The notes under the pieces were generated by a model that worked only from the letters and a program-made list of their open reading frames with translations, did no database searches and was not told the origin of the DNA. From assembly GCA_951406725.2 (NCBI GenBank), contig OX597819.1:6572001-6636000 (forward strand): a DNA stretch of 64,000 nt, written 5' to 3'. This document shows positions 1 through 63,274 of the stretch, one piece after another (positions within the stretch are counted from its first letter, which is position 1; the number at the start of each line of letters is the position of its first letter). The DNA is from Octopus vulgaris. Lineage: Eukaryota. The position numbers were made by a program, and so were the translations under genes.

Positions 1-1050
1 TGTATAGTCCGCCGGAAAGGTTGTGTAAGTATTGTTTAATTTGGGAGAGAAGGAATTGGCCAACATGGTCAGTAACCTGGGCTGAATCTAATGCGCCCAT
101 GGTTATATCGAAGAACTCATTAGAGGAGTTGCGTCTCCAATTATTATTCTTAAAGTGAATCAGGGTTCCGTATCAACCTGGCAAAGGGATGACTCCTGGC
201 CAGAATAATACTGAAGTCCGATCGGGAGATGAGAGCTTATTTTTGGGCAAAGATTAAGGTTTTATTTAGGAGAATTGCTGATATTGATGAATAATAATTT
301 GAGATGTCAAACTGAAGGAAATAGGTGTGTTGTTTATCATGAAAAGTGGAAGCTTAACGTTAGTTCTAACAATGGGTAGAATACGGGCAATGATGCATTT
401 ATTAGTACGACCTAAGTTGCATTTAGTGGGGCAAATGAGTCTAATGGAAGGCTTAGAGTAGAATTTGGTTTGTGGTCCTTCAGGGTGAAGTGGTGGGCTT
501 TAGGTGTATATAGTTCAGTTCTAGTTAGTAAATTAGATCAGCAATGAGCTTACGGTGGACCTTATTAACCTCCTTAAGAGCATTTCTATGTGCATGTTTA
601 TAATTTGTGTTTAGTTCCTTTGATAGTATATGTTTCGAGGGGAAGGGAGTAAAGATGCTAGTTTTGTCAGAAAAGAAGTGCAGGTGTAGTGAAGTCCTTA
701 TTTTATATGTAATTTTGGATAGTTCTTTCTGGAAGGAATTAGCATAATTAGAGAATTCAATGTTTTTTTATCTTATGTAGATCTTTCTCAAAATTAGCCA
801 TTGCAAGGTTTGGAGGGGGGTTTTGTGGGATTTTAGGTTGTAAGTGTCCTTTTCATTAGAATGTTCGGGGTGATTAGATTTGAGGCCATAATATAGGGCT
901 CTCAACATCATTCGAGTGATGAAGTCATTAGTCTTCTGTAGTAAGAGTTCCATGTGTATATCCCTTGGTGGGATCGGGATATTTTTTGTAGACTTTCTTG
1001 AGAATTGCTTATCTATGAGTGTTATCTAACTGTAGCGCTCAGCCGAGCAA
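1..1050 (-). mobile_element. Penelope-like retroelement, degenerate N-terminal/RT region (runs off the window)
   Basis: Minus-strand translation gives STKNIPIPP..MELLLQKTNDFITRM, HFTLKDHKPN/FYSKPSIRLICPTKCNLG and FFDITMGALDSAQVTDHVGQFLL...GGLY, which are PLE RT motifs; frameshifts and stops present. Confidence 0.85.
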
Positions 1051-9846: not shown

Positions 9847-10240
9847 TAAGATAACTTAGATAACTTAGATATGTTTCGACCAAAGATTGGTCCAGGCCAT
9901 GTCTAACTTAATAGCACCACCTGATAAGATTATTCGAATCCTGTTTACGTCAAGTTTTGTTAAAGTCAAGTTTTGTTCAAGTAGTGAGTTCTTGTTGGGT
10001 GAGTTGTATCCAATTATGGGTGGCTTATCTGGTATTCTTTGAAGGTATCTATCCAGACTCCGTTTAAAGTTGATGGGATCCTCTTCCTCTTTGATCTCTT
10101 TCGGGACAATGTTAAATAGGGCAGGGCCTGTTGAGGAAAAGAAATTATGTTGCAGTGTACATATATGTTGTGATCTTGAATTGGGCAGGGGACGTATGGC
10201 CCGTGGTCCCAGTCTTAGATGAACCTTGAAGCTAATGTTA
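9847..10240 (-). mobile_element. 5'-truncated CR1/L2-group LINE 3' end
   Basis: ORF 9865-10275 C-terminus GPALFNIVPKEIK...FKRSLDRYLQRIPDKP, followed by a (TATCTAAGT)n tandem tail. Confidence 0.75.
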
Positions 10241-10791
10241 AGGTCGGAGGCATAAATATAAATACAGATACACATATAGAGGGAGGTAATTATTCACAGA
10301 CGGAACGAGCATTTATATTTACATCTCACACTTTCACAAGCAAAAAAGAAACTTGCCAACACAGGAATGTGTGCATTGAACCACTGCAAAAGTCCACGAA
10401 TGATTGTCTCTTATTACACGTAAATGCTACTGATCATATTTTTATCCAAACCAATGAAGGTTTTAAATCTAGTAAAATCTCACATAACAAATTCCAGAAT
10501 GATGAGCATTTGAAAGTCGAGATAAAGAACGCATGACAACTGAGGTTATGCTCAAAATCCACTCATAAAATAGGTATTTCACTCTCAATACACTTTTCAG
10601 TATTTAATTTCACTGTTAGTGTGCACTGTATACATACTGATGAATATATGCCTGTATCTCTGGGTGCGTTTCCTATATATATATGTATGTGTGTGTATGC
10701 ATTTATGTATACATACGTATTCATATATACATATATATATGTATACGTATTCATATATATATATATATATATGTATACATGCATATATAAG

Positions 10792-10876
<85 letters not shown>

Positions 10877-10985
10877 GTATATAATATATATTATATATAC
10901 GCATATATATGTATTTCAATATATGACCGCGTGTGTATCGTTGGCGATTTTCTTTCTCCGTCATCCCTTCTTCGGACTTTTTCTA

Positions 10986-11021
10986 TATTTCTGACGAAAA
11001 GCTCCACTTGAAACGTGAGAT
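10986..11021 (+). ncRNA. Degenerate minimal hammerhead motif in a TA-flanked unit of about 200 bp (10920-11120)
   Basis: CTGACGA-a-AAG ctcca CTT-GAAA-CG-TG; cleavage position is G and helix I is weak. Confidence 0.4.
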
Positions 11022-11123
11022 CCTCTTTCTTTTCCTTCCTTTCCTGAGCGTCCAATAACACTGTATTTATTCCACGTCCTCGCGTTGTTGTTTTTTCTTG
11101 CTTGTTCATGTTTGGATTAACTA

Positions 11124-13319: not shown

Positions 13320-13368
13320 CATATGACAACTAAGTGTTTGGTTTTTCAAATTATATTGAAACTGGAAC

Positions 13369-13441
13369 GATCGTACTGACGAGTTCTGCGGACGAAGGAT
13401 TACGTAATTTATTCGATGACAGACGAAGCTTGTATACGATT
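13369..13441 (+). ncRNA. Degenerate type-I hammerhead in a TA-flanked unit of about 200 bp
   Basis: Helix I ATCGTA/TACGAT, core CTGACGA, helix II GT(T)CTG/CAGAC, then GAAGCTTG-TA (A15.1 missing; AAGCTT palindrome). Confidence 0.55.
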
Positions 13442-13525
13442 GATCTTGATTTTTATATATATTTAATTTTCATCTGTCTTGCACGCTTATGTTCTGGTGT
13501 TTTTTTTTTGTAGTTCGATCATCCC

Positions 13526-20489: not shown

Positions 20490-20673
20490 TAAATTAATTG
20501 GGTGGCTTATTAGCAATTAGAACCTGAAGGCAAAATTAATAGAGGTCAAAAAATTGACGGAGGGTACTGATCAGCACCGGCTGTTTCTAGAAACAAGAGT
20601 TAAAATAACTCAAAAGCCACAAAGCACTGTACTTAATGACTGACTAAAGAGAGGTAAGTTCCCAGTGTATATA

Positions 20674-20730
20674 GCCCGATCGAACGATTTCGGATTTTGA
20701 TGCACAGCATCTTAATCCTCGTCACCGAGT
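20674..20730 (-). ncRNA. Degenerate hammerhead motif
   Basis: GTGACGA (C3>G)-GGATT aa GATGC tgt GCATC aa AATCC-GAAA-TCG tt CGA-TC; helix I poor. Confidence 0.55.
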
Positions 20731-21439
20731 TTTGAAGCCTAGGGTTAAACTCAACTACTTCTGTCAATCTTATAATGTGTGCATGTACGTATGTACGTAT
20801 ATATGTATTCATGCACACAGCTGCAAATATACGCATAAACATACATAGAATCATTCATTCGGACACATTAATAGAGCGGGTGCACGTGCATACACACGTG
20901 TGTGTACACCATATCTATTTCTTTTTTTCATATACAAAGACTTCAACATTTTGGCTCGAGATAACTGCATTAATATATACATCTTATGAGAATAGCATCT
21001 AGATTTCCCCTAGGGGCAAATATACATATATACAGATGTGTGTGTGTGTGTGTATACATATATGCAGAGAGAGAGAGTGAGAGAGAGAGAGAGAAGGGGG
21101 AATATATATATACACGTATACATACATATAGATGCATATTTATATATCAACATCTGATATGTGTGTATGTCTATATACACAACTATCATGTATATATTTC
21201 ATTCAGGAGTATGAAATGGGTGATGAAATTATTTTAGCTATTTTTCTGACGTATTTAAATTTTATGTGAGTAATATGAAACATTCTTTTTGACACGTTAA
21301 ATCAATAGACACGAATATTAGAAGAGCGCCTGTGTACATTTGTATCTGCATGTGTATCTGTTCCTGTTCATGTCTCTCATTTTTATGAAGACACTTTGTC
21401 TATCTCTTTTTTTCTCTGTTTGTCCATATGAATGTCCGC

Positions 21440-29479: not shown

Positions 29480-31150
29480 AACGCCTGACACAGAACTCCG
29501 TACTCATGAGTATGTACTCTCGCTATGTCGATGATTTCAGCATCCCCACAAAAGAGTACTCTCGAAATAGAAATAGAAACTAATCCTATGGAGAGCATCC
29601 AGCAAATACCTAACTCCATTCACCAGAGTATTAAAGTCACGATAGACTAGCCTACGAAACACCATAACCATAGACTACCAGTACTAGATACAGAACTCTG
29701 ACTGAAAACTAGGAATAATAAAACGCAAATCCTCCATTCAAACTACACCAAACCTATGGCTTCCAAATACCTGATCCACTGGAACTCAGCTATCGTGTAC
29801 AATGCCTAGTTCAATATATTGATGGTATACCTCATCAGAGTAATGAGAAATGTGTCTCGCATGTGCGACCCTACAGAGTTAAAGAGACACATACAACACT
29901 TCGTTCACCGCATGCAGTTCTCAGGATACAGCCATAGTGAAAGGATCAGAGTATACAAAGGAGCCATGAGGAAATTTGAAACTATCATACGTAATGATAG
30001 GATTTGCCCACTCTATAGGAGCAAGTCATGGAATACCATTGAAAGGACTAAGAAGAAAATAGGGAAGGCCAACTCATGGTATGATAGCCACAAATACCAG
30101 AGTGTCATGTTCGTAGACACCACTCCTAGAGGCGAAATGGCGTACTGTATTAGAAGTGCCTTAGATAAGCATAAGCTAAGAATTAAGGTTGTAGAAAGGT
30201 TAGGTAACCCTATCAAATCCCTAATCGGTAGAACCTACATTTTTAGTAGAACCCCTGAACGGATAGGAACTGTATTGTATGTAGATTCAGCCCACAAACA
30301 AACTGTAAAGTTAGGAATGTAGTCTATAGTATAAAATGTACAGAGCGAAGGTGCAGAAACAAGACAACGACGTACGTAGGGGAGACAGTACGGAGCATAG
30401 GAGAACGGGTAAATGTACATTGGAGGGAACTTAAGGAAGAGAAGAGCTCATCGGTTCTATACGAGCACGCTGAGTGGGAACAGGAGGTCTCACTCAACAA
30501 CATAGAAGTTAAAATCTTGTCCACACATAGAACAGACGCAACGCTTAGACAAATTACGGAAGCTACACACATAATAGATGAACCTAGCCTAAATAGAAAA
30601 CTAGAATGGAACAGAAGCATACTCCACACACACACCACAACCTATGACAGAACAAGATCCCCATAGACTAATGATAATCTGAAACTAATACAATAGACAG
30701 ATAAATGAATGGAATTAAATAATTACATACATAAACAAAATATAATAAATTAAATTAATACAAACAAGAAAGAAATGAAAAATTAAGTAGATAAAACAAA
30801 TTATTAAGATGAATAAAAGTAAATTAAGCGAACGTATATAAACAGGGGGTACTAATAATGCAGGTACCATACACATTCCCACACACACACTTACTAAACA
30901 TTGACACACAGGGATATACGCATGCGCAAATAAAGGCACATGCAACTGGAATACAAAATGGCAGATTGCTCGTTAAGAGTGAGACAAAAATAAAGAACAA
31001 AGCAAAGGACCACTGATGAAGTCACAGAAGTGTGACGAAAGAACTCTGGCCGAAATACAATTAATATAAAATACAGCTGAAGCAAGTGAACACCAAATAT
31101 ATAGTGCGTGTGTTTTCATTGGCTAAACTGGCAACATGACCATCCCCAAC
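29480..31150 (+). mobile_element. 5'-truncated Penelope-like element: RT C-terminus, GIY-YIG endonuclease and 3' pLTR with hammerhead
   Basis: RLPVLDTEL..YTKPMASKYLIHWNSA; ORF 29819-30322; VVYSIKC...YVGETVRSIGER...LRQITEA...LNRKLEW (GIY-YIG); stops and frameshifts. Confidence 0.85.
31007..31051 (+). ncRNA. Minimal type-I hammerhead ribozyme (Penelope pLTR)
   Basis: GGACCA-CTGATGA-a-GTCACA gaag TGTGAC-GAAA-G aa C-TC-TGGCC; intact core with one extra nt after A9. Confidence 0.7.
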
Positions 31151-40029: not shown

Positions 40030-40950
40030 GCTAGGTTACAGCTAGTGGATAAGGCGAGTCGGACATGTGGGACTTAAATTCTTTTAAGGATGAAAAAAGG
40101 ACGAATAATATTAGCCTGAGCAAACTAGTCTAGTCAGTTAAAAACAGGAAACATAGCTATACTGTAGAATGGGAAACAATCAGTGCAGCTAAACCATATC
40201 GGCCGGGGAAAGTGACTTATGTGTAGAAGAATTCTGCCAAATCTTTACATCAAGAAACACGTTACTTAATACCAGACCTGAACAGGCCTGAAGATGATAA
40301 CACAAATACAAGACTTTAAAAAAAATTAAAGAAAGTTCTGAATAACCAATGTCCCAACCACAGTTGAGTGTAAGAGGATGGATAGAAGAACATATCCTAA
40401 ATCCTAGAAATTCATAGCCCTCTTTTTTACAAACTTAGTATGTCCTATCTCCAATGAATACCGCATAACATAAACAATACAGCCAAGATAGAAATATATG
40501 AACAACACACTACAACATCACACTAAAAGAGCTGTACTTGAAAACAATGCTACAACATACCCAACTACCACATTGCACAAGGAGCACTGCATAAACACGG
40601 CGATCAATCTCGGCCTAATTAGACCGAGCCCTGACTTCGGACATTAACAGGTGTGAATTTGAGGTCAACCGCACAAACTCACAAATGGATCAGATTTCAG
40701 TTTCAAAACACCCACACACACACGCGCGCATACACACGCACACATCACTCCGAGCCCTAACAAAAAACTAACTGCACTCAGTTTGTTTCGAAAGTAGCCA
40801 AATAGATGGGCCCTGAAAAAGCTGCACCGAAAATTGTGCCAGGTTGCATCTGCAACACGTCATATGTTCAGTGGAAATACGTGTAGGTCATAAAGACTAT
40901 AACAATATATTTTATATAATAGTAAAATAAGAAGAAATAAATTTTGCGGA
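40030..40950 (+). mobile_element. Degenerate Penelope endonuclease/pLTR with decayed hammerhead at 40809-40889
   Basis: LKNRKHSYTVEWETISAAKPYRPGK...LCVEE; GGCC-CTGAAAA...GAAA-TACGTG-TA-GGTC. Confidence 0.65.
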
Positions 40951-41275: not shown

Positions 41276-42550
41276 AAACTACTGAATAATTGTGTTATAT
41301 GTTTAAAGAATATATTTAACATAGTTAGAATCGCTTTCTCTAACACTAGAAATCTTTCACAAATTATATCTTCTCACAATACCAAGCTGCTAAATAAAGA
41401 TTCTTCACCCGGGAGTTCCAGCATTAATCTTGCTAATTCCAGCCCATCATACAATCATAATAATAGGAATAGTATTAATAGTAATAGCAATGGTAGTAGT
41501 GATAGTGTTAACAACGATAATAATAACAATAATAGTATTGGTCGTGTTAATAACAATGGTAATGTTAATGGTAATAACAATAACGGTATTATTGTTGATG
41601 GTATTATAGGTTGTATTACCATTAATAATACTAATAATAATAATAGGAATAGTGTAGTTGTTGGTGCTGATAATAATAGTAACAATAATCATAGCAATAA
41701 AAACTTCGTTTCGATCACGGAGGACAACCTCAACATAATTAAATTTTTGTCTAGTAATTCTAAGATTAAGAATTCTATTTACCAGTGTAGAATTTCTTCC
41801 GGTACCGATGACTTCTTCTATATAGGAGCGTCCACTTCCCAGTTATCCAAGAGGATTCCAAACCATTATTCAACATTCAGGGATAGTAAAAAACGACATA
41901 GTACAGGGCTAAGTAAATTAGTTTGGCGTCTTAAAGACAACAATATAATTTTCAAGTTAGATTGGTTCATACTGTCTGTATCCTTTCCCTTTGATAAGGG
42001 CAGGAGATTTTGTAATATTTGCAACTCTGAACTCTTCCATATCCTCTTCTCTAAGGTTCCCCTTGTAAACACACTCATAGAGAAATCGTACAAATGTAAA
42101 CACTGGCAGAAACATACTTGTTACTCATATAAATGATTTCGATAGTCATTATAGTTTGAACAATTAGTTTAACGTGCACTCCACTTCAATAGAGAATTCT
42201 TTCCTAAGCCTTTGAACATTCTTTTAATCAACGTACCCTTCCCTCTCCACTTGTTCCCTACTTATTATTCCTTTAACCCTTCTCTTCCTACTATCTAACT
42301 TTGACGTCAGTTCTACTAACGGTTTTTTTTAAAACACTTATTATCGTTTTGTTTACCATGTAGGCAGTCATCGAAATTTTTGTTTGTCTTGTTGTTGAGA
42401 GAGGTTCCCCTTCTTTCCTAATGAGAAGATTGCATCTTGCACCCTTTATTCCTTTTGAATGAAACCATGTTGTCTTCGAAACATATGTCGAGAATAAAGG
42501 AATTTTGCTAACATCTTCGTTCGACTCCATTCTTTTATTTATTCATATAT
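41276..42550 (+). mobile_element. 5'-truncated Penelope-like element: thumb, Asn-rich linker, GIY-YIG endonuclease and pLTR
   Basis: Stop-free frame 41276-42136: VRIAFSNTRNLSQIISSHNTKLL...SIYQCRI...YIGASTSQLSKRIPNH...CNICNSE...CKHWQKH. Confidence 0.88.
42414..42493 (+). ncRNA. Type-I hammerhead with G5>A core mutation
   Basis: TTTC-CTAATGA-GAAGA...TCTTC-GAAA-CATATG-TC-GAGA. Confidence 0.65.
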
Positions 42551-45679: not shown

Positions 45680-48300
45680 CAAAAAAAGCATTGTGAAATA
45701 CAGCTTCCCAGGATTTCCTGAATGAAATATTAATTTATTTCACCATTTATCAGCCTGGTGAAAACAAGATGGTCTAGTAACAGCGTTCGATACCATCGAC
45801 GTTTGAATGAGAGCCTATATATATAAAAAGAAGGGGAGAAATACAGAGGGTGGGTGATTAACTTCACCGCAAATATAACCAGTGTCTTTCTATTACCAAA
45901 AAATGCATAAACCAAAACTGGAATGGTTTGGGATGTATCCAGTGGTTTATCTTTAATTGCCACTAAGATGTATTTTGTAAAACGTGGACATCAAGAAGAA
46001 ATCTCGCTCTTCATATTTACACAGTAACTGGTGATTTACACAGTAACTGTTTTTTTGAAAGTTATAATTCTTATACGAGTATAAGGAACTTCTTATAGAC
46101 TCGATAATATATGGTTTGGCCTCAGAAAGGATCTTCTCTTTGATGTTGCAGTTGATGTATTCGTCCATAAGTTTCTAGATTAATGCCGAAAGGGATGTTG
46201 CTTGTCTCTTCTCGGGACGTCTAAAGACTGAAAGATGGTTGTTGTATCTAGATTTAAATGTACTTTCCACAGATCAAATATAACGCTTGGTCCCTGTCCG
46301 GCCGTTGCCATAGTTCGCTGATACCTGTACTTCTATTTCTTTACTACCCACAAGGGGCTAAACACAGAGGGGACAAACGGGGACAGACAAACGGATTAAG
46401 TCGATTATATCGACCCCAGTGCATAACTGGTACTTATTTAATCGACCCCGAAAGGATGAAAGGTTAAGTCGACCTCGGCAGAATTTGAACTCAGAACGTA
46501 ACGGCAGACGAAATACGGCTACGCATTTCGCCCGGCATGCTAACGTTTCTGCCAGCTTGCCGCCTTAAACAACGGAGGATATATCGGATGCCCAAGAGGG
46601 CATTTAGATTTAGCTACCCATGTGCATCCATGTCTCAGCCATTAGTTGTTTATTGATATATGCTTTTACATTAGGTGGGGCATGAATATGTGATTTCAGT
46701 GCGCTTATCAAATATTTATTTATACTCAGGATTTCTTAGAAAGTGATTATTTAATAAGTGTAAGAATCATCTACCCATATTTGTCCTAATATTTAGGAAG
46801 AAGGATGGGGGCATAAAATATTGAGAGGGACTATTCTTACGACCACATGGTTGATGAGATGGAGGGTTATAGCCGCTATCCTGTAAAGCCATATAATATG
46901 GGGATGTATTTTCAAATATTTCTGTAAGTGATGAAAAGCAAATAATTCTACGACTAATGTTCTGAATTAAGTTCCTAAATATAACAGATAGTTAGAAAGA
47001 GTGCATTTTGATATATTCTAGATTTTCGTTGGGCTAATAGAAGGATGTATAGGAATTAATTTTGAGATCTGAAAATCCAATCCTACTTAGGTTAGTTTCA
47101 ATAGAAATTATAAGTCCCAAATAGCTAAAGGTTGAAATCTATTGTTTTCTAAGAGAATGGCAATTATTTGATACCCACACCAAAGCATCGTCCTGCTATA
47201 TACCTATGTTTGGGATGGGGAATTTCCAATTTAGCTGGTTTAGTATGTATAAACAACAAAATTGCATATATCTGTGCTATCGAATGAACTCAATTGGCAC
47301 ATCGAATAGTTCATAAACGTTATTTCTTTATCCAGATAGATCCGCCACTAAATAACAGTGTATTACGTGAGTGCATATAGAGGTTTATTTCATATTCATC
47401 GATGGTTACAAACTAATGTGCAATCTCCAATGAAGTCACACAACAGTGATTCAGAAATCAACCGGTAGGAATCCATAATATTAAACTGAATTTTGCTTTA
47501 CTCTTATTGAGGATTTATTTGAACCAAAATATCACAGGGAAACTATTGGTCCACAGTAACAAGATTCCTTAATTTTATTAATATTCTTTAAAATTCTTTT
47601 GCTTGCTAATTCTATTTACGCCATAGTGTGTATTTTGATCGATTATAAAAGTCAGCTTTCTATATGATGAGAGCCCCTCTCTTAATCACACATTCAGTTC
47701 TTTTATCTATATTAAACACTTTTGCGAGGGCTTTACCTTCCGTGTTAATATTGTTGTAAATATCTACGTTAGACTTTTGGCGTTTATCTGTAATGCTATT
47801 AATTAATAATTTATTATGCATACCCCTATCTGCTTCATCCGAAAATATATGATTACTGTTAGAGTTCTTAAATAGATGTAAATCTTTAGTAACTTACATT
47901 GGATCTGGTTAGAGTAAGGGTAATTACTAAATTCAATGGTGAAAATAAGGTACAGCAAATCGGTCTTGAAAGGGACAGAGTCATTGACACATGAGGGAAA
48001 TTTTCGAGATTGTATATCAAAATGCTCATTAAATGCTATAGGTAACTCGTCATCGAACTTTAAGGCCCGCTATTGTTAGCGTTTAACAAAGTGCTCTGTT
48101 TTTTCTATGAGCATCCTCATGTAAAAATAAGGTTTGTATAAGAATGTTCCTAGCAGAGTAATTCATGTGAAAAACAATTCATCATGAAGTTGAATAATTG
48201 CATCGTAGAGCGCTCAACAGTACTGGCTAAGCTTTGCCATTCTTAAGAAAAATCTGCAATGGTTACACCTGTACAGTAGCAATAAACTATGTGGCATGGT
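45680..48300 (-). mobile_element. Degenerate Penelope-like element (RT, GIY-YIG, pLTR with decayed hammerhead at 45701-45757), interrupted by a SINE
   Basis: LFDVP../SFDSTDIC..LYILNQL...NIGI*QDDAL (RT); KRYI*SVESTFKSRYNNH...KILSEAKPY (EN); CTGATAA...GAAA-TCC t GGG-AA. Confidence 0.75.
46333..46565 (-). mobile_element. SINE family B (full length, Meta-domain-like)
   Basis: Head ggcggcaagctggcagaaacgttagc...gagttcaaattc; body as at 34132-34274. Confidence 0.85.
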
Positions 48301-50524: not shown

Positions 50525-50561
50525 TATATACTCAAAATATATATATATATATACTCAAAAG

Positions 50562-50645
50562 TTTGCTAGATAATGTTGTGCGACCTGCCTTATGTTTGAG
50601 CCTAGGCTCAAACATAAAGCAGGTTGCACAACATTATCTAACAAA
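50562..50645. repeat. 84-bp spacerless palindrome
   Basis: 42-bp arms with 3 transition mismatches, centred on CCTAGG. Confidence 0.95.
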
Positions 50646-50912
50646 ATTTGGGAACTAAGAACAAATAATATAGAATTCAACCTAAAATGGGACATAGTAA
50701 GAAGAGCGCAACCTTATAGAAATAGTAGGGATGGTTGTCAACTTTGTTCTATGGAAACTTAAGAAATTTTGAAACATCAGAGTAATACTAATCTGTTGAA
50801 TAACCGTTTGGAGCTGGGAGCATCTTGTACACATCGTACGACCCGAACGTTTAAATACTTTAAATAATAATTTTGTGAATATTCCTATATTTTTCAAATT
50901 TTAATTCATTAT

Positions 50913-51402
50913 AACCAAATAAGAACGGATATACCATACTGGCTTTCAATTTAACATTCATAGATGACTAAAAAACTTCACTGCAAACTTAATATTGAAT
51001 TCTTCTTTTTCTAAAATTAAACTGTATGAATCTAAATAGTTGGAATCCTAAAGAGTATGAATCCCAAATAGTATGAATACTAAATAGTATGAATCCTATA
51101 CCCCTAAGGAAACTATTCGGTTCACCTTGATTATCTCACTTCCATTGCTTAATATATAATTAGGCTAAGATATCTTTACAAAATATATTTAACCAAATAG
51201 GAACGAATATACCATACTGGTTTTAGTTTAACACCCATAAATGATTAAAAAACTTCATTGCAAACTTAGAATTAAATTCTTCTTTTTATAACGTTCTCCA
51301 ATACTAAGTAGTATTAATCCTATGTCCCTAGAGAAACTATTTGGTTCATCTTGATTATCTCACTTCCATTTCGTAATATATAATTAACCTAAGATATTTT
51401 TA
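50913..51402. repeat. Diverged tandem duplication (period about 278 bp)
   Basis: aaccaaata.gaacg.atataccatactgg... at 50913 and 51191. Confidence 0.85.
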
Positions 51403-52190
51403 CCTAACTAATTAACCTTTATCCGCAGGTAGTAAATTTTATTTCCAACAGATCCTATATTTTAATTCATTAATATCAACTCACTATCCATGAAATCTGA
51501 ATAATTTACTCTTCTAAATTACCTCTCTTCATATTTTAAAATCACCTTCTACTAAACCTACGAATATCTTCCTTCTTTGATTTTTCCTCTTCCATCTTTC
51601 TTAGTATATATTTTGACCCCTAATATGTTCACTTAATTAATAAGGCTTTCCCCCCAGTTAATAAGTACTATGCCTACTCATAATAAGTGATAGTCTTTTT
51701 CTTCAAATTGAATAAATTTTAGATTTATATTTTTTCCTTTATTTTAACGTCTCAAAGTACTCGGAATTTATAGACTAACTGAAGGGATGATGTGCATAGG
51801 GCTTGTAAGGTCTCTGCATTCTCTGTGAATGTTATTGTGACCACTTGACATTGACCTAGTTCTCCTAACGCCGGATCTGTTCATCAAATAGTAGTAATTG
51901 GCATTTAGTTGTGACAATGCTGTTTTCTACATAAATTCCTTATATGGAGCTCTGACATCCCCTTTGCCTCATTTCTATAAATAGAAAATCTTTATTGTCT
52001 CCTTTCATTTGTTCTTCCCTCTCAGAACCTTACAGTAGTCTGGAACAACTGAATCTTAGTCAGTCAGTTGATGGGCTCCACTAGCTCAAATGTTCTTAAA
52101 ATTTAAATCCACATCTTTGTCTATATATCTACCTTCTCTATAATGTTGTCACTTGATATGAAAATTTTTGTATTAATGGAAAACCTCTAT

Positions 52191-52281
52191 AATTGGCTGA
52201 TGAGTGCTCAGCATTTTAAAACTGTTATAATACTTACAACATTTAATAAAATGATGTAGTACGAAACGATCGTACCAAATT
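52191..52281 (+). ncRNA. Intact type-I hammerhead ribozyme with extended helix II
   Basis: TTGG-CTGATGA-GTGCT..CATTTTA...TAAAATG..AGTAC-GAAA-CGATCG-TA-CCAA; predicted cleavage after 52274. Confidence 0.85.
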
Positions 52282-52386
52282 ACCGGAGTCATTCTTGTTG
52301 CTTATTTTGATTATAATCACCCCACGGATTTATATGGATAACACCATACAGAATTCTGGTACATCTAAATTAAGTACCATATTCAT

Positions 52387-52429
<43 letters not shown>

Positions 52430-52562
52430 TAAATTAGAGATAAAACCACTATTAGGCAAATCAAACAATGAAAAACATAAGCTAATACATAAAATTAATT
52501 AATTTATATTATTTTAAATATATATCAAAAGTATTAAAAGTTTAATAAAAGATAAAGAGTAA

Positions 52563-52635
52563 AACACTACGATCGTTTCATGGCTGTACAATTCGTAATA
52601 ATTCGAGTTATGGTTACAGTCAATCTTCAGGTTAA
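52563..52635 (-). ncRNA. Type-I hammerhead motif, convergent with 52191-52281
   Basis: AAC-CTGAAGA-tTGaCTGTA...TACAGcCAt-GAAA-CGATCG-TA-GT; core intact, helix I/II mismatches. Confidence 0.7.
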
Positions 52636-52751
52636 TTGAAATATTTATCTTAGCGAGGTTTAGCAAGAATATATATATATATATGTATGTATGTATGTAT
52701 ATATATGTATGTATGTACATATATATGTATGTGTATGTATGTATATATATG

Positions 52752-54709: not shown

Positions 54710-56165
54710 ATCCAGAATCTTTTTGCAGAACTTTTACTTAATCGGCTAACAATGTGGATATGCCCCTCTGTCATCCCGGGGTGTCAGTGTGATTTTAAAT
54801 CAAGACGTGGCACAATAGACTCTTTACTATGTATCTGTGGATTTACTATGTATTTATCGATTTAACAAAAGCCTTCGACATTGTTAATAGGACGTTCTCT
54901 AGACCATTCTTGGTAAACTTGGATGTCGACCTCAATTTGTCAACCTTTTTAAGCAACTTCATAATGATATGAAAGCTCGTCTTAACTTCAATAAGACACT
55001 ATTGGAACCAATTTCCATCAATAACAGAGTTAAACAGGGTGATATTGCTGCTGCAACACTTTTTTCCATATATTTCGCTGTAACTATCTTGCACGTTTTC
55101 CAAGACTGTGATATCGGCGTCTATAGTCACTTCAGAACCACAGGTAAGATCTTTAATGTTAAACGCTTTAATGCAAAATCGAAGACATTCCAGGCCCTTG
55201 TTTGAGAGCTCCTTTACGCTGATGATGTAGATATCGTTGCTCACACCGAGGAGGAATGCAAGCTATACTGGATCTCTTCTCTACAGCTTGTATTGCTTTT
55301 GGACTTTCCATCAGTCTAAAGAAAACAAAGATCGTGTTCTCTCAGCTACCAGGCCAACACTACGTGCAAACTAACACTTTCGTCCAAGATACAAAATTAG
55401 ATGTAGTTGACACGTTCATCTACCTTGACAGCACACTCTCTAGAGATGGATCCCTTGATTCTAAAAGAAACCTGATAATTGAAAAAGCCAGTAAAGCATT
55501 TGGAAGGCTTGAAAATCGTGTGTGGTCTGATAGAGGCATTACCTTCAAAATGAAGCTTAGTATCTATGAATCTTGCATTTTAACGATCCTCCTGTACTCT
55601 TCTGAGATCTGGACGACATATCGGTGCCACGTCAAGGCTTTAAAAAGATACTATCATACTTGCCTAAGGAGGATACTAGACATCAAATGGGAGTCTTTAA
55701 CACCAGACACCATTGTTCTTCAGCAAGCTAACACATCCAGTATTGAAATGATCCTCATATGCAATCAGATGCATTGGGTTGGGTACCTTGCTAGGATGCT
55801 GGATGACAGGTTGCCAAAGCAGTTGTTTTACGGGGAGTTGCGGCGTGGCAAACGTCCGAGGCATAAACTTAGGAAACGTTTTAGGAATGCTGTCAAAAGC
55901 AACGTTAAGGCTCTTAATGTGAAAGTTGAAGACTGGGAGCAGGTGACGCAAGATCGATTGGTTTGGAAAGAAATGATCTACAATAGGTGTAAAGCATCTA
56001 TCTTGAAACGAGCACTTCGTAGACAGGAATTAACTACAATCCCAGGCACTTTTCTACTTTAAAATATTTGTAAGATCTGCAATAGAGTTTATCAAGAGCA
56101 GGACTTGCTAGTCATATAAGATCTCATGACAGTATTTATTAATTGAAGAGATGGCCTTCTTCTAT
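54710..56165 (+). mobile_element. RTE-clade LINE, 5'-truncated and frameshifted RT
   Basis: QCDFKSRRGTID, FIDLTKAFD, VKQGD, RELLYADD, GLSISLKKTK, RLPKQLFYGEL and a C-terminal CKIC...H..SH finger. Confidence 0.92.
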
Positions 56166-60264: not shown

Positions 60265-60676
60265 ACTCTTTTTTCTTTTTTACTTGTTTCAGTCATTTGA
60301 CTGCGGCCATGCTGGAGCACCGGCTTTTAGTCGAGCAAATCGATCCCAGGTCTTATTCTTTGTAAGCCTAGTACTTATTCTATCGGTGTCTTTTACCGAA
60401 GCGCTAGGTAACGGGGACGTAAACATACCAGCATCGGTTGTCAAGCGATGTTGGGGGGACAAACACAGATACACAAACATACACGTACACATACATATAT
60501 ATACATATATATATACGACAGGCTTCTTTCAGTTTCTGTCTACCAAATCCACTCACAAGGCTTTTGTCGGACCGAGGCTATAGTCGAAGGCACTTTCCCA
60601 AGGTGTCACGCAATGGGACTGAACCCAGAACCGTGTGGTTGGTAAGCAGGCTACTCACCACACATCCACTCCTGTG

Positions 60677-60678
<2 letters not shown>
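60265..60678 (-). mobile_element. SINE family A
   Basis: Reverse complement of the family consensus. Confidence 0.88.
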
Positions 60679-60748
<70 letters not shown>

Positions 60749-60966
60749 TTTTTGTTTTTTTGTTTTTTGTACATCTTTAAATATGAGAACTTTAATAATA
60801 GGTTTCTTTATATTCAATTGTTTATAGGGTTTATTTTAGATTATATATTGATTATATATAGATTATATATAGATTATATATAGATTATATATATTTATAT
60901 TTTTTCATTGATAATTTTATTATGTTAAACTTATATTTTAAAATATTGATATTTTAGATCGGAATT

Positions 60967-61010
60967 CCACCTGACGAATGTCATTTGCGGACATGAAACA
61001 ATTGTAGTGG
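60967..61010 (+). ncRNA. Intact minimal type-I hammerhead ribozyme
   Basis: CCAC-CTGACGA-ATGTC atttgcg GACAT-GAAA-CAATTG-TA-GTGG; all three helices Watson-Crick; predicted cleavage after 61006. Confidence 0.9.
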
Positions 61011-61186
61011 CGGTTTATTTATTTTATATTAAAATTTTTATGTATTGATTAAGTCTTTCCTTGTTTGTTTTGCAAAATAGTGGTTTTGTCTCGAATTAAT
61101 ATTATATAATATTTTACTATAAAATTGGATTTAATCCTAAATCTGATTTTTTCCCTGTAAATTTGGATTTATTCCCTAATATTTAT

Positions 61187-61257
<71 letters not shown>

Positions 61258-61974: not shown

Positions 61975-62361
61975 TGGAGGCGCAATGGCCCAGTGGTTAG
62001 GGCAGCGGACTCGCGGTCGTAGGATCGCGGTTTCGATTCCCAGACCGGGCGTTGTGAGTGTTTATTGAGCGAAAACACCTAAAGCTCCACGGGGCTCCGG
62101 CAGGGGATGGTGGTGATCCCTGCTGTACTCTTTCACCACAACTTTCTCTCACTCTTACTTCCTGTTTCTGTTGTACCTGTATTTCAAAAGGCCGGCCTTG
62201 TCACTCTCTGTGTCACGCTGAATATCCCCGAGAACTACGTTAAGGGTACACGTGTCTGTGGAGTGCTCAGCCACTTACACGTTAATCTCACGAGCAGGCT
62301 GTTCCGTTGATTCGGATCAACCGGAACCCTCGTCGTCGTAACCGACGGAGTGCTTCCTCCC
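61975..62361 (+). mobile_element. tRNA-Arg-derived SINE, tail type 1, 13-bp TSD
   Basis: TGTAGCTCTTTAG (61962-61974) and TGTAACTCTTTAG (62362-62374). Confidence 0.93.
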
Positions 62362-62559: not shown

Positions 62560-63274
62560 TCCTCTTGATCCTGGTCCGCGATCATCTTCCATACTTTTCC
62601 TGCCACGCTTGAATTCATTTACCCAGCGTTTCACTGTTAGTTAGTTAGTTACTTAATTTGGCTCAAAAGCAAGTAGCAAGGCCATGTAGGGGGACATGGA
62701 GTTAAGTACAGGGTGGTGTTCATGTAAAGAGTTCAGGCCACTTGAGGTCAAGGGAGGCTTTGAACAAAACGGTCCTCGGCATCTTCACCATCTCGTCTGG
62801 CAGCTTGTTCCACGGATCCGCAACCCGGACGGAGAAAGTTCCTCTCCTTCGATTGAGATGAAATCGTCGCAGGTAGAGCTTTTCGGAATGACCCCGCAGC
62901 CGACGCTCTGGAGCAGGAGTGAAGAACAGCTCTTTCGAGAGGTTACACTTTCCGCTTATGATGTTGTGGGCGAGAATGAGATCACCTGTTGCATATGAAG
63001 GAGCATTGTCTGTTAAGTTTCTCACCATATCTTCATGGATTTCTGATGGAGTCATGCCTTTCAAATGAAGGTACTTTATAACAGCACGATACTCACTTTT
63101 CTCCATTTTCCTTGTAAATTCGAAGCTTGTTTATTCATAAATCTGCAGCAAAAATGATTAAAATATCAGAATCATGAAAATGAGCAAGAATACTCCGAAA
63201 AGACTGTACTTACCAGAAAAAGCTGTTTCAGCTATATAGCAGCCCCGTTTCTTGGTTAGACTCAAATCTTTTCA

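What the first reader, a model, noticed from the sequence alone, without database searches (positions are those of the whole stretch)
60745..61195. Non-coding unit of about 450 bp between (TA)n arrays carrying a perfect 44-nt hammerhead
Seen: in a very AT-rich unit bounded by long TA arrays, the only GC-containing island is CCAC-CTGACGA-ATGTC-loop-GACAT-GAAA-CAATTG-TA-GTGG, with every helix perfectly paired and no coding remnant nearby. The same layout (200-450 bp, HHR, TA flanks) recurs at 10920-11120, 13325-13525, 20490-20775 and 52430-52670. Inference: these are either solo/truncated Penelope pseudo-LTRs or a retrozyme-like class of non-autonomous elements that insert into (TA)n microsatellites.
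Basis: partly seen in the sequence, partly recalled or inferred. Interest (0 to 1): 0.75.

Follow-up and report, generated by a model that had tools for sequence, protein, structure and literature searches.

The report
Penelope retrotransposon end, with spliced siblings
The 450-base unit is a cut-short end piece of a protein-coding jumping gene (a Penelope-like element) whose copies sit in TA repeats, not a separate class of element; hundreds of its sister copies have lost an intron exactly at the splice sites, which likely means the element's enzyme starts copying in the middle of its own spliced messenger RNA.

Summary
The hammerhead at 60967-61010 is real, but the unit is not a new non-autonomous class. 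It is the last ~445 nt of the terminal repeat (pLTR) of a young Penelope-like element (PLE) with Hydra-clade motifs. Full copies carry an ~840-aa RT/endonuclease ORF between two such repeats. Copies share a fixed 3' end: 53 of 56 run into (TA)n and 3 run into the ORF. Their 5' ends vary. Helix III has only 2 bp and a palindromic loop, the known dimer type; cleavage is untested. Of the four other units, one is a sister-family pLTR and three are unlinked repeats; all four have damaged hammerheads.
The interesting part: the pLTR holds a ~1.1-kb GT-AG intron ending 9 nt before the ribozyme. The genome has 255 exact intron-less junctions. The 36 intron-less arms I read stop within 27 nt upstream (likely the transcription start), whereas 30 of 30 intron-bearing copies run on. 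A 2.67-kb intron is also precisely missing from some ORF-bearing copies. Spliced sense RNA is therefore likely a template, primed internally. I did not find this in print. Earlier scan notes on this genome already read such hammerheads as PLE ends.

The parts
60679..60745 (.). Left (TA)n array, likely the 5' half of the target microsatellite
   Evidence: directly follows a different repeat (a SINE, label recalled) at about 60290-60678
60746..60957 (+). 3' part of the pLTR intron (whole intron 1078-1159 nt in L031, L003, L007, L008). Begins in a T-rich (T5-7G)n tract and ends at the acceptor AG 60956-60957
   Evidence: the same stretch is absent from 255 exact exon-exon junctions
60958..60966 (+). 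First 9 nt of exon 2, between the splice acceptor and hammerhead stem I
60967..61010 (+). Type I hammerhead with 2-bp helix III and palindromic loop; predicted cut after 61006
61011..61104 (+). Rest of the pLTR up to the 'short' 3' end at about 61100-61104, where inverted arms and many solo copies stop; inferred first priming site
61105..61190 (+). The ~80-nt 'tail' up to the 'long' 3' end; inferred second priming site, 55-65 nt upstream of the ATG in ORF-linked copies
61191..61254 (.). Right (TA)n array, likely the 3' half of the target
52430..52666 (-). Intron-less solo pLTR of a sister PLE family. Exon-exon junction at 52645|52644, damaged hammerhead at 52630-52568, ends at the short end
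52192..52278 (+). Intact type I hammerhead (palindromic loop) of another repeat family, not listed in the finding
10920..11121 (+). Multi-copy repeat with a damaged minimal hammerhead core; no ORF link found
13325..13525 (+). Multi-copy repeat with a damaged hammerhead; no ORF link found
20490..20775 (-). Multi-copy repeat, often in inverted pairs, with a damaged hammerhead; no ORF link found

Best explanation
The unit is the 5'-truncated last ~445 nt of the terminal repeat (pLTR) of an RT/endonuclease-coding Penelope-like element with Hydra-clade motifs, likely written into a (TA)n tract by target-primed reverse transcription that began at an internal site of an unspliced element RNA and stopped in the U-rich part of the intron. 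Shown: identity to ORF-flanking repeats, two fixed 3' ends 80 nt apart, variable 5' ends, TA flanks, and precise loss of two GT-AG introns in sister copies. Inferred cycle: (1) RNA polymerase II starts in the pLTR 25-27 nt before the donor. The RNA is exon 1, intron, exon 2 with the hammerhead, ORF, long 3' UTR, then the next pLTR. (2) The protein nicks (TA)n and primes cDNA at one or both internal sites, which lie about 145 and 60 nt upstream of the ATG and recur in the downstream pLTR. Two primings give head-to-head arms, one with the tail and one without. (3) Priming in the 5' UTR of spliced mRNA runs off the cap after ~170-260 nt and leaves intron-less solo pLTRs, likely dead ends. (4) Priming in an unspliced pLTR gives copies like this one and, rarely, full elements that keep promoter and intron. 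(5) The hammerhead was uncut in every RNA that gave a copy spanning the site. It is predicted to cut only when two copies pair through the palindrome, as in tandem read-through RNA.
For: Link to the ORF: L031 has 1352-nt direct repeats (99.1%) around an RT ORF, and the unit matches their last 450 nt at 93%. Eight of 12 further loci chosen for long frames hold Met-started ORFs of 820-851 aa, and all 12 match the unit at 82-93%. The model of the 837-aa ORF (pLDDT 81) has telomerase RTs as its five best structural matches. Ends: of 56 distinct loci, 53 reach (TA)5 within 25 nt and 3 continue into the ORF; the window background is 7.9%. 5' extents run from ~130 to more than 1780 nt. Splicing: 255 exact exon-exon junctions, control 0. 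All 36 distinct intron-less arms stop 9-27 nt upstream of the junction and none enters the ORF, whereas 30 of 30 intron-bearing donors run further upstream. Three exon-1 alleles each occur both with GT and joined to exon 2. The commonest exon-2 haplotype is shared by 16 spliced and 12 unspliced arms. On contigs C1-C7, head-to-head pairs are 14 spliced/spliced, 10 unspliced/unspliced and 0 mixed. The sister family has 23 intron-less and 7 intron-bearing copies among 30 read and is ORF-linked. L243 is 98.2% identical to L031 over 1511 nt but lacks exactly L031's 2666-nt GT-AG intron.
Against: No cleavage, transcription start or splicing was observed in RNA; the steps are read from DNA copies. 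Hydra membership rests on motifs and by-eye comparison, not on a tree, and the RWK motif reads KWK. Pfam found no RT or GIY-YIG domain in the L031 ORF pieces, and no solved structure matched by sequence. The loci are best-scoring or first-listed subsets, not random samples. The 255 versus 127 counts use patterns of different strictness, and short spliced copies need less reverse transcription, so the ratios do not measure template preference. In the sister family 3 of 7 intron-bearing copies also stop near the presumed start, so the contrast is less sharp there. In the one PLE tested in vitro the priming sites lie inside the ORF and share no homology with the target (PMC11167929); here they lie upstream of the ATG and are AU-rich.
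Confidence: 0.9

Rival explanations
1. The unit belongs to an independent retrozyme-like non-autonomous class with fixed ends that spreads through small RNA circles.
For: It is short and non-coding, carries a type I hammerhead, and has many near-identical copies (1896 first-look candidates). About 8 of the 30 best copies end 5' in the same T-rich tract (read by eye), so a ~450-nt size recurs.
Against: It is colinear with ORF-flanking repeats and its 5' part is intron sequence. 5' ends vary widely. On C1-C7 no same-strand neighbour of a spliced junction lies within 10 kb, and only two same-strand unspliced pairs occur, kilobases apart. Retrozymes are defined as tandem hammerhead units (PMC7229834, passages; bioRxiv 10.64898/2026.07.22.740005, part 1).
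Confidence: 0.04
2. The intron-less solo pLTRs are not dead ends. They keep the start site and both priming sites, and act as SINE-like masters mobilised by the PLE protein.
For: Both ends are near-fixed, copies are numerous (255 exact junctions), and they keep an initiator-like start sequence (consensus recalled). It would give a route from pLTR to retrozyme.
Against: The main exon-2 haplotype is identical in spliced and unspliced arms, and each of three exon-1 alleles has intron-bearing masters. No tandem spliced units were seen on C1-C7. In the anole element the RNA segment needed for activity extends beyond the priming sites (PMC11167929), and solo copies would lack the equivalent.
Confidence: 0.15
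3. The 'spliced' junctions are DNA-level deletions in one or a few ancestors, or template jumps, not products of splicing.
For: Two of the exon-1 alleles end in AG, a 2-nt match to the acceptor.
Against: The third allele, the sister family and the 2.67-kb intron lack that match, yet all are cut exactly at GT and AG. An ancestral deletion would not explain the stop at 27 nt or less.
Confidence: 0.04

Closest known systems
Hydra-clade Penelope-like elements, including Hydra-1_Obim of Octopus bimaculoides (Craig et al. 2021, PMC8557442; section 11, passages and supplement rows read)
   Same: Single ORF with RT and a C-terminal endonuclease, DKT and CxCx5C motifs, CxxC and CxH at the C-terminus, a hammerhead, and (TA)n insertion.
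   Different: A different family from Hydra-1_Obim (protein N-terminus and hammerhead differ, compared by eye). It has clear pLTRs, KWK for RWK, an Asn-rich insert, and 5.5-6.8-kb units in its long form (2979 nt in a compact form). No intron is mentioned for Hydra in what I read.
Penelope of Drosophila virilis (PMC2377424, passages; PMC4209133, parts 1-2 of 4)
   Same: Start site in the pLTR, short exon 1, 5'-UTR intron ending beside hammerhead helix I, palindromic helix III; both spliced and unspliced RNAs exist.
   Different: Its intron is 75 nt against ~1.1 kb here. Its genomic copies are described as keeping the intron; here intron-less genomic copies are common.
Poseidon of Anolis carolinensis, PAc (Frangieh et al. 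2024, PMC11167929; parts 1-2 of 4)
   Same: Two internal priming sites that define the tail, AT-rich targets, and uncut RNA as the main template.
   Different: PAc primes 111-118 nt inside the ORF, with a tail described as 30-40 nt. Here the two ends are 80 nt apart and upstream of the ATG, and the evidence is genomic, not biochemical.
Metazoan non-LTR retrozymes (PMC7229834, passages; bioRxiv 10.64898/2026.07.22.740005, part 1 of 5 and passages)
   Same: Short, AT-rich, non-coding, with a type I hammerhead, related to pLTRs.
   Different: No tandem units were seen, the sequence is part of an autonomous element, and circles are untested.

Membership tests
Penelope-like elements (EN+) | Single ORF with telomerase-like RT | tested here: met
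   837-aa ORF; five best structure matches are telomerase RTs; Pfam silent on the L031 pieces
Penelope-like elements (EN+) | pLTRs, head-to-head inverted truncated copies, tail on one arm | tested here: met
Penelope-like elements (EN+) | Type I hammerhead in the pLTR with short palindromic helix III | tested here: met
   100% of cells paired in 7 copies, one compensatory pair, weak statistics
Penelope-like elements (EN+) | Hammerhead self-cleavage (as a dimer or protein-assisted) | not testable with these tools
   only a computed palindrome duplex of -6.4 kcal/mol
Hydra clade | C-terminal GIY-YIG endonuclease without CCHH, with CxxC and CxH around the conserved E and N | tested here: met
   VVY..YIG..R..H, CYLC and CRH motifs read; motif-level only, no profile hit
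Hydra clade | CxCX5C linker before the endonuclease | tested here: met
   C-T-C-x5-C in L031, L079 and L081
Hydra clade | DKT in place of DKG | tested here: met
Hydra clade | RWK motif | tested here: inconclusive
   reads KWK at the aligned place; most homologues have RWK
Hydra clade | Insertion into (TA)n | tested here: met
   53 of 56 loci, the other 3 continue into the ORF; background 7.9%
Hydra clade | Placement inside the clade in an RT tree | not tested
   reference sequences were seen only as cut text
Non-LTR retrozymes | Tandem array of short units, each with a hammerhead | tested here: not met
Non-LTR retrozymes | Stand-alone non-coding unit, not part of a coding element | tested here: not met
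Non-LTR retrozymes | Expressed as small circular RNA | not testable with these tools
   only contigs of uncertain kind were available

The most novel reading that the evidence does not exclude
In this element the spliced, sense-strand mRNA is a major template. The protein primes inside its 5' UTR and copies back to the cap, scattering hundreds of intron-less solo pLTRs that map the transcription start and both priming sites, and sometimes whole elements stripped of a 2.67-kb intron. PLE 'intron retention' would then need no antisense template: it is a filter, because only copies primed in an unspliced downstream pLTR regain promoter and intron. The processed solo pLTRs are ready-made precursors of retrozymes.
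Probability: 0.6. Interest if true: 0.68.

Novelty: new member of a known kind. Interest (0 to 1): 0.47.

Why it matters
The unit itself is ordinary transposon debris. [quoted passage not shown] Precise intron loss can only come from a sense RNA. The near-fixed 5' limit and the two fixed 3' ends give genome-scale support, in a second clade, for the internal priming so far shown in vitro for one element. Young copies with open ORFs make a direct test possible.

Tried and rejected
Rfam over the whole window was swamped by microsatellite matches; the local scan gave only a sub-threshold hit. Pfam and the sequence search of solved structures did not identify the ORF. Sequencing runs: no RNA holder listed. 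Contigs of four runs only guessed to be RNA were laid on an ORF-linked copy. One contig (run X10) carries exon-1 letters at the acceptor, but the genome itself holds such junctions, so this is not independent evidence of splicing. Contigs show no ends, so cleavage and circles stay open. A possible donor just inside the ORF start showed no joint (inconclusive). No ORF link was found for the 10920, 13325 and 20490 families in the 10 loci held for each, nor in three longer stretches for 13325. My working idea that every ORF-bearing copy keeps its introns was wrong. An extra 5' G from the cap could not be judged because of microhomology with the inverted arms. Literature searches for intron-less genomic PLE copies and for octopus PLE hammerheads showed no such report in the listings or passages read. 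Arkhipova 2003 and 2006, Pyatkov 2004 and Lunse 2017 were not read and may bear on this, as may the closed supplements of the bioRxiv preprint.

Full report
Observation. The motif is at 60967-61010 with the predicted cut after 61006, between TA arrays at 60679-60745 and 61179-61254. It is not chance: 2 descriptor hits in the window against 0 in each of 100 Markov windows. Helix III has 2 bp and a self-complementary loop, and the monomer's best fold is not the hammerhead. This is the arrangement that Cervera and de la Pena describe as needing a second copy (PMC4209133, parts 1-2 of 4 read). The four other units fail the descriptor; each has a lesion and each is a separate multi-copy repeat. The genome is a 2.8-Gb animal assembly, probably an octopus: named homologues are from Argonauta and Octopus and earlier scan notes say so.

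What it is. The 281 nt around the hammerhead gave 1896 first-look candidates, of which 40 were scored, at 91-98% identity apart from the window itself. Two neighbouring hits bracket an element with 1352-nt direct repeats (99.1%) around an RT ORF with one frameshift; the unit matches the last 450 nt of both at 93%. A 212-aa probe gave 153 matches. I fetched 12 loci chosen for long frames or neighbouring hits; 8 hold Met-started ORFs of 820-851 aa and all 12 match the unit. The modelled protein resembles telomerase RT most. It carries DKT, CxCx5C, CxxC and CxH as listed for the Hydra clade, with KWK for RWK. It is not the published Hydra-1_Obim (by eye). No tree was built.

Ends. I took the 30 loci and the 30 and dropped 4 duplicates. 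Of the 56, 53 reach (TA)5 within 25 nt of a fixed point and 3 run on into the ORF; background is 7.9%. 5' extents run from ~130 nt to the locus edge at ~1780 (my chaining stopped early at a T-rich tract in a few long copies). About 8 of the first 30 really end in that tract, which explains the recurring ~450-nt size. Many copies have a head-to-head inverted arm that stops 80 nt earlier. This is the PLE tail, which in the anole element lies between two internal priming sites (PMC11167929, parts 1-2 of 4).

Introns. The pLTR contains a GT-AG intron of 1078-1159 nt in the four loci measured first (1006-1174 nt in most), ending 9 nt before stem I. The unit's first 212 nt are its 3' part. The genome has 255 exact exon-exon junctions for two alleles, 127 exact acceptors of one spelling and 38 exact donors for three alleles. 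Of the 30 loci picked on the last 131 nt alone, 11 are spliced, 1 probably spliced, 4 unspliced and 14 end before the acceptor. All 36 distinct spliced arms in 29 held loci stop 9-27 nt upstream of the junction, and none enters the ORF. All 30 fetched of the 38 donors run further upstream. The stop lies at an initiator-like sequence (consensus recalled); I infer the transcription start. Each of three exon-1 alleles occurs with GT and also joined to exon 2, and one exon-2 haplotype is shared by 16 spliced and 12 unspliced arms. Using the 93 spliced and 62 unspliced places listed for C1-C7, head-to-head pairs are 14, 10 and 0 mixed, as expected if both arms come from one RNA.

The window's own 52430-52666 unit is such an intron-less copy of a sister family. 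Of 30 fetched among 159 matches, 23 lack and 7 keep a ~0.9-kb intron (one with a changed donor); 3 of those 7 also stop near the start. Two further copies lie behind ORFs 82-91% identical to the first family.

Against my first idea, ORF-bearing copies can also be spliced. A second donor lies 182 nt after the stop codon and uses the same acceptor, 2666 nt away in L031. Eighteen junctions of that type occur at 13 loci, 5 of them with ORF sequence upstream. L243 is 98.2% identical to L031 over 1511 nt and lacks exactly this intron. L240 is a whole 2979-nt unit with the junction in both repeats. For the diverged subfamilies among the 13 loci the compact form may be ancestral rather than spliced; I did not resolve this.

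Mechanism. Shown: structure, ends, TA flanks, precise intron loss. Inferred: Pol II start in the pLTR; nicking of (TA)n by the element's protein; priming at two AU-rich internal sites about 145 and 60 nt before the ATG; run-off at the cap for spliced mRNA; stalling in the U-rich intron tract for this copy. Copies span the cut site, so their templates were uncut or re-ligated; the anole study found uncut RNA to be the main substrate. Dimer-dependent cutting of tandem RNA is predicted, not tested.

Comparison. The layout of start site, short exon, intron and hammerhead is known from D. virilis Penelope (PMC2377424, passages; PMC4209133). (TA)n insertion with hammerheads is known for Hydra (PMC8557442, section 11 and passages). 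An antisense template was proposed to explain intron retention, with unspliced sense RNA left open (PMC3846280, Discussion read whole). I found no report of intron-less genomic pLTR copies; key older papers were not read. Earlier notes of this scan on other DNA of this genome already read such hammerheads as PLE ends, and one reports the acceptor being spliced to host exons. I did not check those loci.

Verdict. A new member of a known kind, and an ordinary fragment in itself. Interest 0.47, carried by the spliced sister copies.

Noticed in passing
L240 (G000:C10:100766000-100775999) and L243 (G000:C4:13367870-13370897): ORF-bearing copies lacking the 2.67-kb 3'-UTR region exactly at GT-AG; L240 is a compact pLTR-ORF-pLTR unit of 2979 nt that also lacks the presumed promoter.
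   Followed up: partly
G000:C5:119297562-119300912 (L156-L168): A tandem array with an 85-nt period made from the stretch between the tail and the ATG, beside an inverted hammerhead arm: a satellite derived from the element.
   Followed up: no
L079 ORF, about residues 490-600: Asn-rich, low-confidence insert between RT thumb and linker, absent or short in most homologues; similar inserts are described for rotifer Penelopes (PMC3846280).
   Followed up: no
window 52192-52278 and 50540-52390: Intact hammerhead with a long helix II at the end of a ~1.8-kb AT-rich unit that starts with an endonuclease remnant (50610-50861); it shares a TA tract, tail to tail, with the 52430 unit.
   Followed up: partly
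window 2-1016 (-), 40074-40208, 41276-42136 (+), 46866-47327 (-), 29810-30666 (+): Further PLE ORF remnants: Hydra-like by tblastn, and a weak GIY-YIG Pfam match at 30259-30663.
   Followed up: no
hammerhead helix II, first pair, across subfamilies: A-U, U-A, A.A or U.U instead of the usual G-C; may lower intrinsic activity.
   Followed up: partly
window 55226-56062 (+), 9865-10293 (-), 62720-63130 (-): ORF remnants that look like a LINE RT end (first two) and a mariner-type transposase start fused to a LINE end (third); labels recalled, not tested.
   Followed up: no
window about 60290-60678 and 61984-62360: Two abundant short repeats flanking the unit, likely tRNA-derived SINEs (label recalled).
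   Followed up: no
L235 (G000:C32:58300-68299): The 13325 family occurs twice, 8.4 kb apart, each with an inverted arm and no ORF between; probably a segmental duplication.
   Followed up: partly
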